Source: Escherichia coli (GTDB lineage Bacteria; Pseudomonadota; Gammaproteobacteria; Enterobacterales; Enterobacteriaceae). Taken from it: DNA of 64,000 nt. The stretch lies in NCBI RefSeq assembly GCF_003334385.1, contig NZ_QOWN01000001.1, one strand, 5' to 3'. The position numbers were made by a program. Positions 18,001 through 21,000 of this stretch are shown piece after piece; the first letter of the stretch is position 1; every line of letters starts with the position of its first letter.

Positions 18001-21000
18001 GCCTTCATTCAGTAAAAACTGATGCATGGTAATGTCGGCGGCATACGCGCGTTCATCTGCCCGCAGGATCCAGATAATCAGATCCAGTTCCGGTAGCAGC
18101 TGACGATAAAGTGTCCGGTATTCCTGATCATGCTGCGGTGTTTCACCAATGCCGGGCAGATCGACCAGCGTCATTCTGCGTTCACCGAGTTGCAGGGTAA
18201 GACGATGAGCCTGGCGGGTGCAGCCGTTCAGGGGATGCGTGGCGCAGATACGGGACTGAAAAATGGCATTACACAGGCTGCTTTTGCCGGTGCCGGATTT
18301 ACCCATAATGCCAATCACGGGCTCGTAATGAATAACACTGTGGAGATGTTCAAGGATTTTCTGGCGAATTTCTTCAGGAAGAAACGTCAGATATGATTTC
18401 ACTTGTGCGGAGAGGGAAGAATGGCTGAATGACATACCGGTATCCTGTTGATTTCACTGAACCGGATCACACTAATCCGGTTTATCATTCAGGTAATATG
18501 GGCGTGAAAAAATCTGGAGTGACAAAGTTCGGGAGGAGTGATGGCATCACTGTCGATTAATACGCTACGCCGAATGAGCATTTGTAAAAGTCAGGCCTGG
18601 AAAGATACCCAGCGAATACTGAAGCGTAGTGGACTTGTGTACAGAGGGGAACGGTCAGAATCGTTTGATCCTGAGAAACATTTTAATCGTTATACGGTGC
18701 GTTATCTGTACCTGCTTAACATAATTGCGCTTAAGATAAGGTCGGTTAGTAAATTTTCCTGTTGGATCGAGGTGGGACAATGCCATCGTATGACTGGTAA
18801 ACATTTATCTCTTAATGCCCCGCCTTTTATGCTGATTCCGCGTAGTATCCGGAGAAAAGTGGATGGATTCAGACAGTCAAAAGGTGAAGCAACCCCAAAA
18901 TCGGCTCAACCGTTCACGGGCAGTTTGTATGAGGTTTTGAGCAAGGAGAGCGATTCAGCTAAGCTGGACGCATGGATTGCTGAACTGCCTCTGAACTTGC
19001 AGGAGGAGGGAAAGGAAATCTCAGTCATGGGATTTAGTCCACGGGCTGTGGCCCGACCTGTTCTTCGGTCAGCATCCCCGACGTTTGAACTGTTTTATCA
19101 GGAGTATCAATCCCTAAGATTAAAATCTGTTTTTAAATTTGAACCAAGATTTGAACAACTTTTAACAAGACTGAGCTTTAGAAAACAATCAATTCTCAGA
19201 AAACAACAATACAGGGTTAAATCGCAATTACTGGAGAGACTGGGGAATGTGTTGTTTTTCACGTCGCTTTATAACCAGGGATGTTTAGAGGAGTTTATAA
19301 ATGCACTTGTGGAAAAGGAGGACATTTATCTGAAAATGTCCCCTGGGGAGGAAAAGGTGAAAGCACACCAGAAAATGGTTAACTACATTGAAGCGTTCTG
19401 CAACAAAATGACGGAAAAATACCTGATGCCCGCAGCAAGCAGACACTACAAAAAGAAGAAAATCGCTAGGAGCGAAAGTGGTGAAAGTTAATCCAGTCTA
19501 CCGTACAGAATCAGTTGTTCCAGAATAGCCTGCTGTGTTGTTTTCCGCTCTCTGGTCAGTCTGTCCAGAGCGCTTTTTGCGGATGGCGATATCTTTACGT
19601 TGATTTGTACCCGTTTATCTTTTTTTCCATCGATAAACTGTTTTCTGAATGCATTGTGCATCTTGTCGAAAAATCTTTCTTTTGCAGCGAATCCTAGGTG
19701 AAATTCTTTTGGCGTCAGTAAACAGGGTGTGTCTGTGGGGAATAACATTTTTAGTAAAACTACAATGGCAATATATCTTTCGTTATCATTTACAGGATTA
19801 AACCAGGAAAGATATGTGGGTGAGATACGTGCATCAATATATTCCCATGCCCATTTCAGTTGTTCGGTATTCTTTTTAAGCCATTTGGCTTCGTTTCTCT
19901 TTTCGAGTCCCAGCCAGTTTTGATGCATTATTGAGATAATCCGATCTGCTTCCCCATAAAGGATTAACGCATTAATCCATTTCCCTATAACATTCAGTCG
20001 TGTTTCATGACTTGAAGGAATAATTGTCATGGGGTTATCCTTCATAACGATCACCCCCTTCAAGGCAGAATTGAACTCAGATTCATTATTAAGTTTAAGT
20101 TTTTCGGGAACTGTATGAGACATAATTAACCAGAACCAGAATGCTGCAATTTCATTTTTTCTGATCCATTCAGGTATGTGATTATCTGCCAGATTATTAT
20201 CATTCAATAAATGCTCAGTTGTTTTATTTTTCCAGTCATATCTATTCACGTTATAACCGCCTTTATATTGTTTCATCTGATTACGCCTCAATCGTTTTCT
20301 TTTCTGGTGATTTTCACCATCACATGTCAGTTGTATATGCAAGGGAATCAATAAAAATATCACCCTGCAAGCACTTCAAAGCTGATTATGGGGATATTCT
20401 AGAACTATTCACAAAACTATTCCAGACATATCAAGAACTATTTCTTGATCTATTCATAATAAAATAAAACATGCTATCAACTACGGATCATATCCTCCTT
20501 AGGTGTGTCGTTGTACTGTTCGACTGTTCTTGTGGTCAGATTAACAATCTGAAGAGTAAAAGCGACAGTAATCTGTCTGTTATAGTGGCGATAAAAACAC
20601 TGACTGCGCATCCTGTATGTGAAATCCTGTCATGTAGAGCAGTAAGCAATGACAGACATGCATGTTATATGTGAAGGGGCCGGGAGACGACATAATCAGT
20701 ATGGCTGTCATTCTGGTTGTAAAACGCGATCACTTTCCGGGGGTAAAAGATGATATGGAGGTTGACAAACGGTTTGCTTCGGATTGTCTTTTCTGGGGCC
20801 TGAAGTACGGGGGCAGAAAAATAATTCCAGAGTAAATCTGCTCTGTTTTTAGGACAGAAAACTCCATGCTGGCTGTAAAAGTGAAAAATTAACACCTAGT
20901 ATGTATGGAAGTCTGAAGATATTGAGAATGTCGGTATGATACTATATACACATATTTTACTAAGTATTTTTACTAAGCATTTCAGTAAGTGTTATACACG

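What the first reader, a model, noticed from the sequence alone, without database searches (positions are those of the whole stretch)
18541..20470. Convergent AT-rich pair of uncharacterised genes between the island GTPase gene and a Gp2-like gene
Two long ORFs (316 aa plus-strand, 262 aa minus-strand) converge and overlap by 4 bp at their 3' ends. Both are visibly more AT-rich than the flanking island genes and carry no motif I can assign, apart from a C-terminal ribbon-helix-helix-like segment in the minus-strand protein. The minus-strand promoter region (20,277-20,470) contains three AACTATT direct repeats. The pair lies between a YfjP-like GTPase gene and a YfjJ/Gp2-like gene, a position where CP4-57-type elements carry variable cargo such as the rnlAB toxin-antitoxin pair in K-12. 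A self-regulated accessory module of unknown function, possibly phage defence or addiction, is therefore plausible.
Basis: partly seen in the sequence, partly recalled or inferred. Interest (0 to 1): 0.7.

Follow-up and report, generated by a model that had tools for sequence, protein, structure and literature searches.

The report
Conserved island DNA-binding gene pair
These two uncharacterised genes are a conserved core module of a widespread family of tRNA-inserting mobile islands, not swappable cargo: one encodes a DNA-binding protein distantly related to the chromosome organiser MatP that probably controls the island through short repeats at its own promoter, and the other encodes a basic orphan protein of unknown activity.

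Summary
ORF1 (18541-19491, +, 316 aa) and ORF2 (19488-20276, -, 262 aa) converge on a shared TTAA. Both are AT-rich and lie between a YfjP-like GTPase gene and a YfjJ/Gp2-like gene. Upstream of ORF2 are four A(A/T)CTATT(C/T) repeats (p~0.004).

The 'variable cargo/defence' reading is not supported. ORF2 belongs to a broad gammaproteobacterial family (85 clusters at 50% identity). Family members always sit divergent from the AlpA/YfjJ arm and upstream of the GTPase...RadC...CbtA operon. Its C-terminal half (aa ~142-259) is homologous to the MatP DNA-binding region, helical domain plus ribbon-helix-helix (hhalign 94.5%). Its N-terminal domain has no known relative.

ORF1 is a basic orphan (pI 9.85) found only beside short-form ORF2. 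Long-form ORF2 genes directly precede the GTPase gene without it. E. coli alleles swap one cassette: the ORF1 C-terminus, ORF2 and the repeats. Neither protein matches any PADLOC, Pfam, NCBIfam, PHROG or PDB family. ORF1 stays intact where ORF2 is deleted, which argues against a toxin-antitoxin pair.

Best reading: an immunity-like regulatory module of the island, with ORF2 as repeat-binding regulator. ORF1's biochemistry is unknown. Moderately interesting; a new variant of a known kind.

The parts
18541..19491 (+). ORF1, 316 aa. A basic (pI 9.85), predicted all-helical orphan protein. The N-terminal ~190 aa are conserved; the C-terminal ~60 aa are allele-specific.
   Evidence: No family hit in Pfam, NCBIfam, PHROGs, PADLOC or PDB. 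Homologues at 27-31% identity in L004, L013 and L019 are always convergent with an ORF2 homologue.
19488..20276 (-). ORF2, 262 aa. DNA-binding protein: a family-specific N-terminal helical domain followed by a MatP-like helical domain and an RHH.
19854..20276 (-). ORF2 N-terminal domain (aa 1-141). Helical, with near-invariant W37, R93, W121 and W132. No known relative.
19500..19853 (-). ORF2 aa 142-259: region homologous to the DNA-binding part of MatP, from the W-x-W-x-Y-(L/I) helix (WAWEYI in ORF2) through the RHH.
   Evidence: A6 profile against PDB: 4d8j MatP E=2.3e-4, 7nyw E=3e-3. hhalign of the MatP segment against A6: 94.5%, E=8e-8, 104 columns.
19503..19613 (-). Ribbon-helix-helix motif (aa 222-258). 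Strand RVQINVKIS, then two helices.
   Evidence: CopG and ORF56 weak hits. P0089 against NF010256 RepA/CopB-type E=3.5e-6. pLDDT 87-97 over this segment.
19488..19491 (.). TTAA shared by the two stop codons (4-bp convergent overlap).
   Evidence: The same 4-bp overlap occurs in L008, L011, L012, L013, L014 and L024. The gap is 10-22 bp in L019 and L004.
20403..20455 (+). Array of four direct repeats A(A/T)CTATT(C/T) at 20403, 20415, 20436 and 20448 (spacing 12/21/12). Putative ORF2 operator.
20385..20414 (-). Weak sigma-70-like promoter match (TTGTGA-18-CATAAT) overlapping the repeats. Low confidence.
   Evidence: promoter-like sites are not enriched: 4 found, 10.5 expected. The -10 part is not conserved in L002/L003.
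19453..19475 (-). Terminator-like hairpin plus T-run just downstream of the ORF2 stop, inside the ORF1 3' coding end.
19300..20620 (.). Cassette replaced as one block between E. coli allele types: the last ~60 codons of ORF1, all of ORF2, and its promoter and repeats.
   Evidence: homology to L008/L011 is lost at 19275-19307 and regained at 20609-20639. ORF1 C-terminal type tracks ORF2 type.
17551..18435 (-). YfjP-like GTPase gene. An invariable same-strand downstream neighbour of ORF2-family genes, and first gene of the GTPase...DUF932-ArdB-RadC-CbeA/CbtA operon.
21968..22708 (+). YfjJ/Gp2-like (HUH rolling-circle initiator family) gene, divergent from ORF2 across a 1.7-kb gap.

Best explanation
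The pair is a backbone control module of a family of tRNA-integrating, satellite-like mobile islands. It is not cargo.

ORF2 is a sequence-specific DNA-binding protein. Its C-terminal half is a MatP-type helical domain plus ribbon-helix-helix, and it presumably dimerises through the RHH strand. I infer that it binds the phased A(A/T)CTATT(C/T) direct repeats at its own promoter. These repeats lie in the divergent control region between the excision/replication arm (AlpA, YfjJ HUH initiator, cargo) and the GTPase...ArdB-RadC-CbeA/CbtA arm. ORF2 would thereby autoregulate and set the expression state of the island, in the way an immunity repressor does.

ORF1 is an accessory, strongly basic protein encoded antisense between ORF2 and the GTPase gene. 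Its C-terminus is exchanged together with ORF2 and the repeats. I infer that it works with ORF2 as a co-regulator or anti-regulator, and/or that its convergent transcription opposes ORF2 read-through.

Shown: gene reality, the homology of the ORF2 DNA-binding domain, the conserved repeats, the conserved position, and the cassette exchange.

Inferred: that ORF2 binds these repeats, the sign of regulation, its targets, and everything about ORF1's activity.
For: (1) ORF2's DNA-binding domain.
- RHH hits occur in family members.
- The family profile matches MatP (4d8j) at E=2.3e-4, and hhalign gives 94.5% over 104 columns including the pre-RHH helical domain.
- The AF2 model is confident (pLDDT 81.5) with strand-helix-helix at the C-terminus.

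(2) Operator-like array.
- Four phased repeats, p~0.004 locally.
- Five of the 8 AWCTATTY sites in 64 kb lie at 20240-20455.
- The array is retained in alleles that keep the same RHH strand.
- The type-B allele has a different strand (RVQISALIS) and carries a different tandem pair, AACATGAT x2 at 11-bp spacing.

(3) Backbone position.
- In every informative lineage ORF2 is divergent from AlpA/YfjJ and upstream of the GTPase gene on the same strand.
- The family spans many gammaproteobacterial genera, with 85 clusters at 50% identity.

(4) Immunity-like cassette exchange of ORF2, the repeats and the ORF1 C-terminus. Evolution is fast, with Ka/Ks ~0.5 against 0.14-0.20 for the GTPase gene.

(5) ORF1 is found only with ORF2, convergent, across ~30% identity.

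(6) This element class has been described as integrase + excisionase + HUH initiator + cargo + RadC/ArdB/CbtA operon, with no regulator assigned (PMC12458937).
Against: - No direct evidence that ORF2 binds the repeats.
- The predicted promoter is weak and its -10 element is not conserved.
- Upstream repeats in distant lineages are only two-copy and could be chance.
- The operator/strand covariation rests on one allele comparison.
- Structure searches did not recover MatP or any regulator convincingly, and no family member hits the Pfam MatP models.
- ORF1 has no assignable fold (pLDDT 45) or motif, so its role is guesswork.
- The N-terminal 140 aa of ORF2 are unexplained and could carry a non-regulatory activity.
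Confidence: 0.5

Rival explanations
1. Anti-phage defence or toxin-antitoxin/addiction cargo. ORF1 would be an effector or toxin, and ORF2 its RHH antitoxin or transcriptional guard.
For: - The element class carries defence cargo (BREX in L002, TIR in L024, helicase in L019; PMC12458937).
- ORF1 is never seen without an ORF2-family neighbour in intact loci, while ORF2 can occur alone. That is the asymmetry expected for a toxin and its controller.
- Both genes are AT-rich and evolve fast.
Against: - No PADLOC hit for either protein or for distant relatives, apart from one isolated weak hit to an accessory winged-helix model.
- The genes are convergent, not an operon, and the RHH sits at the C-terminus of a 262-aa protein.
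- The position is fixed and backbone-like across genera rather than variable.
- ORF1 remains an intact 316-codon gene in strain ZF31 and on plasmid NZ_CP010123, where ORF2 is reduced to ~84-97 bp.
- Absent from phages and essentially absent from plasmids.
Confidence: 0.13
2. DNA-handling rather than transcriptional role. ORF2 would be a MatP/CopB/ParG-like site-binding protein that organises, segregates or controls replication of the excised island. It would act with the YfjJ rolling-circle initiator and the repeat-rich AT-rich gap, or it would anchor the adjacent YfjP-like GTPase to island DNA. ORF1 would be an accessory DNA-binding factor.
For: - The closest solved relative is MatP, a chromosome organiser.
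- The RHH is most like CopB/RepA2-type replication regulators.
- ORF2-GTPase adjacency is invariant, with an 83-bp same-strand gap in L017 and L023.
- Iteron-like repeats (20943-21081) and a 97%-conserved non-coding element (20474-20772) lie between ORF2 and the YfjJ gene.
- ORF1 is very basic.
Against: - ORF2 lacks MatP's C-terminal coiled-coil and there are no matS sites.
- The GTPase is a TRAFAC MMR_HSR1 type, not a known partition NTPase.
- RHH similarity alone does not imply replication control.
- No evidence that these islands replicate autonomously.
Confidence: 0.22
3. Decaying or spurious ORFs in H-NS-silenced AT-rich island DNA, with no current function.
For: - AT-rich DNA, annotated only as hypothetical.
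- The CFT073 island is itself degraded (integrase fragment, IS insertions).
- Ka/Ks is higher than for the neighbouring GTPase gene.
Against: - Ka/Ks is 0.37-0.51, below 1.
- Full-length homologues at 27-31% identity exist, with conserved motifs and the conserved convergent arrangement.
- ORF2 has 85 clusters at 50% identity, with near-invariant Trp/Arg/Glu positions.
- The pair is intact in ~500 complete E. coli genomes.
Confidence: 0.03

Closest known systems
MatP (macrodomain Ter protein, PDB 4d8j/7nyw)
   Same: ORF2 aa ~142-259 align to MatP residues ~12-126. The aligned region includes the W-x-W-x-Y-(L/I) helix (WKWKYL in MatP, WAWEYI in ORF2), the helical domain, the basic linker and the RHH. 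Both are site-specific DNA binders built from a helical domain plus an RHH. MatP's architecture is from my own knowledge of the MatP-matS structure.
   Different: - ORF2 has an extra ~140-aa N-terminal domain.
- It ends right after the RHH, so it lacks MatP's C-terminal coiled-coil.
- It has no matS sites nearby and does not hit the Pfam MatP models.
- It is island-encoded, and its candidate sites are short direct repeats rather than a 13-bp palindrome.
CopG / CopB(RepA2) / Arc-type RHH repressors
   Same: A C-terminal strand-helix-helix motif, with family members hitting RepB-RCR_reg, RHH_1 and NF010256. Repeated short sites overlap a promoter region, as is usual for RHH repressors (own knowledge).
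   Different: Those proteins are 45-90 aa with the RHH as the whole protein or at the N-terminus. ORF2 is 262 aa with the RHH at the extreme C-terminus. Scores are far below the NCBIfam cut-off (27 against 87 bits).
Master repressors and immunity cassettes of phages and phage satellites (e.g. cI/operator modules, SaPI Stl). This is a comparison of how it works, from my own knowledge.
   Same: The regulator gene is divergent from the excision/replication genes. The regulator and its cognate sites are exchanged together as a mosaic cassette between otherwise collinear elements. Evolution is fast.
   Different: There is no sequence or fold relationship. Repression and induction are untested. The extra convergent partner gene (ORF1) has no counterpart.
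Type II toxin-antitoxin pairs with RHH antitoxins (e.g. the ParD/ParE pair present in related islands, L017)
   Same: A two-gene unit with an RHH protein and possible autoregulation.
   Different: - The genes are convergent, not co-transcribed.
- Both proteins are several-fold larger.
- There is no toxin family match.
- ORF2 occurs without ORF1, and ORF1 survives without ORF2.

Membership tests
Ribbon-helix-helix (CopG/Arc/MetJ) superfamily | ~45-aa beta-strand/helix/helix motif recognisable by sequence profile | tested here: met
   RHH_1 E=0.14 on ORF2 alone. In the 51-member family, RepB-RCR_reg matches 5 members and RHH_1 matches 2 at E<=1e-3. The A6 profile gives weak hits to CopG (2cpg) and ORF56. 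The AF2 model has an extended segment 222-230 followed by helices 231-244 and 248-258 at pLDDT 87-97.
Ribbon-helix-helix (CopG/Arc/MetJ) superfamily | Dimerisation through an antiparallel beta-ribbon that inserts into the major groove | not testable with these tools
   Only a monomer was modelled. This needs a dimer/DNA model or an experiment.
MatP family | Helical bundle plus RHH DNA-binding region homologous to MatP | tested here: met
   hmmsearch of A6 against PDB: 4d8j E=2.3e-4, 7nyw E=3e-3. hhalign 94.5%, E=8e-8 over 104 columns. Structure search supports it only weakly (Foldseek rank 24, E=5.9).
MatP family | C-terminal coiled-coil (tetramerisation/ZapB contact) | tested here: not met
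   ORF2 ends 4 residues after RHH helix 2. The alignment to MatP stops before the coiled-coil.
MatP family | Recognition of matS (GTGACRNYGTCAC) | tested here: not met
   There is no matS site within the module. The only 1-mismatch site in 64 kb is at 52160, at chance level.
MatP family | Match to the Pfam MatP models | tested here: not met
   No MatP family appears among the Pfam hits of the 51 members at E<=0.1.
Type II toxin-antitoxin system | Co-directional bicistronic operon, with a toxin of a recognised family that depends on the antitoxin | tested here: not met
   The genes are convergent. ORF1 has no family hit. ORF1 is intact without ORF2 in ZF31 and NZ_CP010123. ORF2 occurs without ORF1 in L017 and L023.
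Known anti-phage defence systems (PADLOC-DB v2) | Profile match of the component proteins | tested here: not met
   No families for ORF1 or ORF2 at E<=1. Among 7 distant relatives there were only two isolated weak hits, Cas11f at E=0.012 and WH_III-A at E=5e-5.
CopB/RepA2 replication-regulator family (PF10723 / NF010256) | Whole-protein match above the curated cut-off; ~85-aa protein next to a rep gene | tested here: not met
   The best score is 27 bits against a cut-off of 87, covering the RHH only. ORF2 is 262 aa.
Backbone of tRNA-integrating HUH/AlpA/RadC-ArdB-CbtA elements (PMC12458937) | Fixed position in the element across lineages | tested here: met
   ORF2 lies between the AlpA/YfjJ arm and the GTPase operon in all informative loci. 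ORF1 is interposed in 5 lineages and absent in 2.

The most novel reading that the evidence does not exclude
ORF2 and the invariably adjacent YfjP-like GTPase would form a previously unrecognised DNA-anchored GTPase switch. This switch would be the master control, or the segregation/packaging device, of a large class of satellite-like islands that ferry defence and virulence cargo. ORF1 would be an antisense-encoded, specificity-matched antagonist. ORF2 would then define a new island-borne branch of MatP-like proteins with a novel N-terminal effector domain.
Probability: 0.12. Interest if true: 0.7.

Novelty: new variant of a known kind. Interest (0 to 1): 0.45.

Why it matters
These tRNA-integrating elements (integrase, AlpA, HUH initiator, RadC/ArdB/CbtA operon) spread defence systems and virulence genes such as ireA and pap in uropathogenic E. 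coli. How they are switched on is unknown (PMC12458937 assigns no regulator). A conserved MatP-like RHH protein at the divergent control region, with a co-varying repeat array, is the obvious candidate for that switch, and it gives a testable handle on island induction and mobilisation.

The finding also extends the MatP DNA-binding architecture beyond the chromosomal Ter organiser. It defines two protein families with no Pfam model: the ORF1 family and the ORF2 N-terminal domain.

Tried and rejected
- **Library searches of both proteins.** Pfam, NCBIfam, PHROGs and PADLOC gave nothing significant. The same libraries on distant relatives gave only RHH-level hits.
- **Structure of ORF1.** The AF2 model is unusable (pLDDT 45), so no fold search was attempted.
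- **ORF1 against ORF2 profile comparison.** Unrelated.
- **Long-form ORF2 N-terminal extension against ORF1.** Unrelated.
- **K-12 YfjH** (318 aa, divergent from alpA) as a possible family member. Unrelated to both.
- **Rfam on 17000-24000.** Only a sub-threshold mir-316 chance hit.
- **RNA folding of the conserved gap element.** No signal (z -0.56 and -0.03).
- **Literature searches** by accession, locus tag and gene name. Nothing on these proteins.
- **Upstream repeats in distant loci.** Only two-copy matches, so not conclusive.
- **Promoter scan.** No enrichment over shuffles.
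Full report
**1. Observation**

The window at 18400-20687 is 99.96% identical to E. coli CFT073 (NC_004431), in the pheU-associated island next to cadC. The mechanical ORF list gives ORF1 at 18538/18541-19491 (+) and ORF2 at 19488-20276/20363 (-). RefSeq annotates the 316-aa and 262-aa forms, both as 'hypothetical protein' (WP_000157734.1 and WP_000816188.1). 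Both ATG starts have plausible Shine-Dalgarno sequences, and the two stop codons share a TTAA.

GC falls from 0.51-0.56 in the GTPase gene to 0.35-0.45 over the pair. It rises again to 0.52-0.56 in the YfjJ/Gp2 gene.

AACTATT occurs three times within 40 bp, at 20403, 20415 and 20436. Only five copies exist in the whole 64-kb window. With the degenerate consensus A(A/T)CTATT(C/T), there is a fourth copy at 20448 and a fifth at 20240. A local test that allows any 7-mer gives 18 of 5000 dinucleotide shuffles with a triple occurrence, p~0.004.

**2. The genes are real and travel together**

The pair is found whole in about 500 of 5,426 complete E. coli genomes. ORF1 alone is detectable in 743 genomes and this ORF2 allele type in 561. 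The difference arises because a second, very divergent ORF2 allele (type B, ~26% amino-acid identity) escapes blastn.

Ka/Ks against alleles in strains ESBL15, 746 and a third genome is 0.37-0.51 for ORF1 and 0.49 for ORF2. The adjacent GTPase gene gives 0.14-0.20. Both genes are therefore under selection but evolve fast.

ORF1's family is narrow. Two searches of a 5.8-billion-protein collection found only E. coli/Enterobacteriaceae members plus one 27%-identical protein, P0079. P0079 also has a convergent downstream partner, and that partner matches ORF2's C-terminal half (hhalign 95%).

I then found two further ORF1 relatives at about 30% identity by looking next to distant ORF2 homologues: L013 (hhalign 99.6%) and L019 (99.8%). 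An HMM-based table over all fetched loci shows ORF1 convergent with an ORF2 homologue in five independent lineages. The stops overlap by 4 bp or lie 10-22 bp apart.

**3. What ORF2 is**

A single-sequence scan gives only a faint RHH signal (RHH_1 E=0.14). An exhaustive profile search of 1.84 billion representatives found 85 family members at E<=1e-3, mostly 250-370 aa and matched end to end.

Of the 51 aligned members, five hit RepB-RCR_reg and two hit RHH_1 at E<=1e-3. One member hits the CopB/RepA2-type model NF010256 at E=3.5e-6, although far below that model's curated cut-off.

The family profile matches MatP in the PDB (4d8j E=2.3e-4; 7nyw E=3e-3). The match covers about 120 residues and starts well before the RHH, at a W-x-W-x-Y-(L/I) helix (WAWEYI in ORF2, WKWKYL in MatP). 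A reciprocal profile comparison gives 94.5% probability, E=8e-8.

In AFDB50 the fold recurs in uncharacterised proteins of Hafnia, Citrobacter, Salmonella, Serratia, Vibrio, Proteus, Psychrobacter, Acinetobacter, Pseudomonas and other genera.

ORF2 therefore consists of a family-specific N-terminal domain (~140 aa, near-invariant W37, R93, W121, W132) and a MatP-like helical + RHH DNA-binding region. It is not a MatP family member:
- it lacks the C-terminal coiled-coil;
- there is no matS site in the module;
- no member hits the Pfam MatP models.

**4. What ORF1 is**

ORF1 matches nothing in Pfam, NCBIfam, PHROGs, PADLOC or the PDB, either alone or as a profile that includes the 30%-identity relatives. 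Its model is unusable (pLDDT 45), though predicted all-helical.

It is strongly basic: pI 9.85, with 55 K+R against 32 D+E. Motifs conserved down to 27-31% identity include W-x2-(T/V)Q-x2-LKRSG, V-x-(Y/H)-LY-x-L, IRRK-x-(D/E)-x-F-x-Q, GSLY, and a hydrophobic (A/V)LFF-x3-Y motif (NVLFFTSLY in ORF1). Its biochemical function remains unknown. It is unrelated to ORF2.

**5. Context: backbone, not cargo**

In E. coli the order is always the same:
- CbtA/CbeA-DUF987-RadC-antirestriction-DUF932-...-WYL/HTH-GTPase (one strand);
- ORF1 (opposite strand);
- ORF2 (same strand as the GTPase gene);
- a 1.4-1.9-kb unannotated gap;
- the YfjJ/Gp2 gene, divergent from ORF2;
- then variable cargo: ireA and pap here, BREX in ESBL15, a TIR protein or YfjI elsewhere.

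In distant lineages ORF2 homologues are likewise divergent from AlpA and/or YfjJ, and upstream of the GTPase gene on the same strand.

Two architectures exist. Short ORF2 forms (260-307 aa) have ORF1 interposed antisense. Long forms (359-370 aa, with an acidic low-complexity N-terminal extension unrelated to ORF1) sit 83 bp upstream of the GTPase gene, with no ORF1 (L017/18, L023).

It has no homologue of either gene, and YfjH is unrelated.

A 2025 preprint describes this class of elements as integrase + excisionase + HUH rolling-circle initiator + defence or iron-uptake cargo + a RadC/ArdB/CbtA 'moron' operon. It proposes that they behave as phage satellites but does not mention this pair or any regulator (PMC12458937). 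Both genes are absent from 50,697 phage records and present on only 2-3 of 72,556 plasmids.

**6. Repeats and cassette exchange**

The A(A/T)CTATT(C/T) array is retained, with 3-4 copies at ~12-bp spacing, in alleles that are 52-67% identical in the surrounding upstream DNA and that keep the same RHH strand, RVQINVKIS.

Between type-A and type-B loci, homology is lost exactly over window ~19300-20620 and is regained on both sides. The exchanged block is therefore the last ~60 codons of ORF1, all of ORF2 and its promoter/repeat region. ORF1 C-terminal type tracks ORF2 type in every locus examined.

The type-B protein has a different predicted recognition strand (RVQISALIS). Its upstream region carries a different tandem pair, AACATGAT x2 at 11-bp spacing. 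This fits co-variation of regulator and operator, but it is a single comparison.

This block exchange resembles immunity cassettes of phages and satellites (own knowledge). Together with ORF2's position at a divergent control region, it is the basis for my preferred explanation.

Weak points:
- the sigma-70-like match overlapping the repeats is low-scoring, not enriched over shuffles and not conserved at its -10 element;
- repeats upstream of distant homologues are only two-copy.

**7. Against a toxin-antitoxin or defence reading**

- The genes are convergent rather than co-transcribed.
- A terminator-like hairpin for ORF2 lies inside ORF1's 3' end.
- There are no PADLOC matches.
- ORF2 occurs without ORF1.
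- In strain ZF31 an IS1-associated deletion leaves only 97 bp of ORF2, while ORF1 is still an intact 316-codon gene with one amino-acid change. Plasmid NZ_CP010123 shows the same state.

The asymmetry 'ORF1 only beside ORF2' leaves a small residual probability for an effector-plus-controller arrangement.

**8. Alternative: a DNA-handling role**

Several observations keep open a role in organising, replicating or segregating the excised island, or in tethering the GTPase to DNA:
- the closest solved relative is a chromosome organiser;
- the RHH is CopB-like;
- ORF2-GTPase adjacency is invariant;
- the gap towards the HUH initiator gene contains iteron-like repeats and a very conserved non-coding element.

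I rate this at about 0.2.

**9. Verdict**

Best explanation (confidence ~0.5): an immunity-like regulatory module of a widespread island family. ORF2 is a MatP-like RHH regulator that binds phased repeats at its promoter, and ORF1 is a co-varying basic partner of unknown activity.

Novelty: a new variant of a known kind. RHH regulators are familiar, but this domain architecture, its MatP relationship, the orphan partner and the two uncatalogued families are new. Interest is moderate (0.45). It would rise if ORF2 proved to be the master switch of these cargo-carrying elements, or to work with the GTPase.

Noticed in passing
window 20474-20772 (core ~20640-20760): This unannotated stretch between the ORF2 repeats and the YfjJ gene is the most conserved part of the GTPase-YfjJ interval. 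It is 97% identical in three alleles whose ORF1/ORF2 are only 72-90% identical, and the core is kept even in type-B loci. No ORF is preserved in all alleles, RNA folding is unremarkable (z -0.56 and -0.03) and there is no Rfam hit. An imperfect inverted repeat lies at 20648-20668/20692-20712. It is possibly a cis-acting DNA site.
   Followed up: partly
window 20685-20687 vs NC_004431: CFT073 itself carries a 1.3-kb frameshifted IS3-family element inserted exactly here, inside the conserved element. The window lacks it, so the window comes from a CFT073-like strain and not from the reference sequence itself. Strain CH436 has an ISEc52 within the pair region.
   Followed up: yes
window 20943-21081: Iteron-like direct repeats (TAAGTRTTTT, and ACACGTRTTTTC / CAGACATACACGTGTTTTCAT) sit in the AT-rich gap upstream of the HUH/Gp2-like YfjJ gene. 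They could be an origin or a binding array for the replication initiator. Conservation differs between alleles: 97% in L002, 73-77% in L003/L024.
   Followed up: partly
window ~21200-21900: There is strong strand asymmetry (AT skew down to -0.37, GC skew up to +0.33; the plus strand is T- and G-rich) just upstream of the YfjJ gene. The stretch contains repeated TTCTGGTGTTTTG motifs. A 57-aa gene annotated in CFT073 lies on the minus strand at ~21615-21788.
   Followed up: no
L026 (E. coli ZF31) 4142-5902; plasmid NZ_CP010123 183453-184487: ORF1 is intact, but ORF2 is reduced to ~84-97 bp next to an IS1 (ZF31). The island segment also occurs on a 214-kb plasmid.
   Followed up: partly
window 16668-17348 and 15843-16625 (minus strand): Downstream of the GTPase gene lie a YfjR-like HTH/WYL regulator gene and a 225-260-aa hypothetical gene with a signal-peptide-like N-terminus. 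Both are conserved backbone genes of unknown role. The WYL regulator is a second candidate controller of the same operon.
   Followed up: no
L017/L018, L023: Long-form ORF2 homologues (359-370 aa) carry an acidic, low-complexity ~100-aa N-terminal extension, and they occur precisely in the elements that lack ORF1. One of them (P0104) gave an isolated hit to the PADLOC model WH_III-A (E=5e-5) over its central domain.
   Followed up: partly
window 23407-23499: Rfam mir-316 match (26 bits against a gathering score of 80, E=0.046) just upstream of ireA. This is a chance hit.
   Followed up: no
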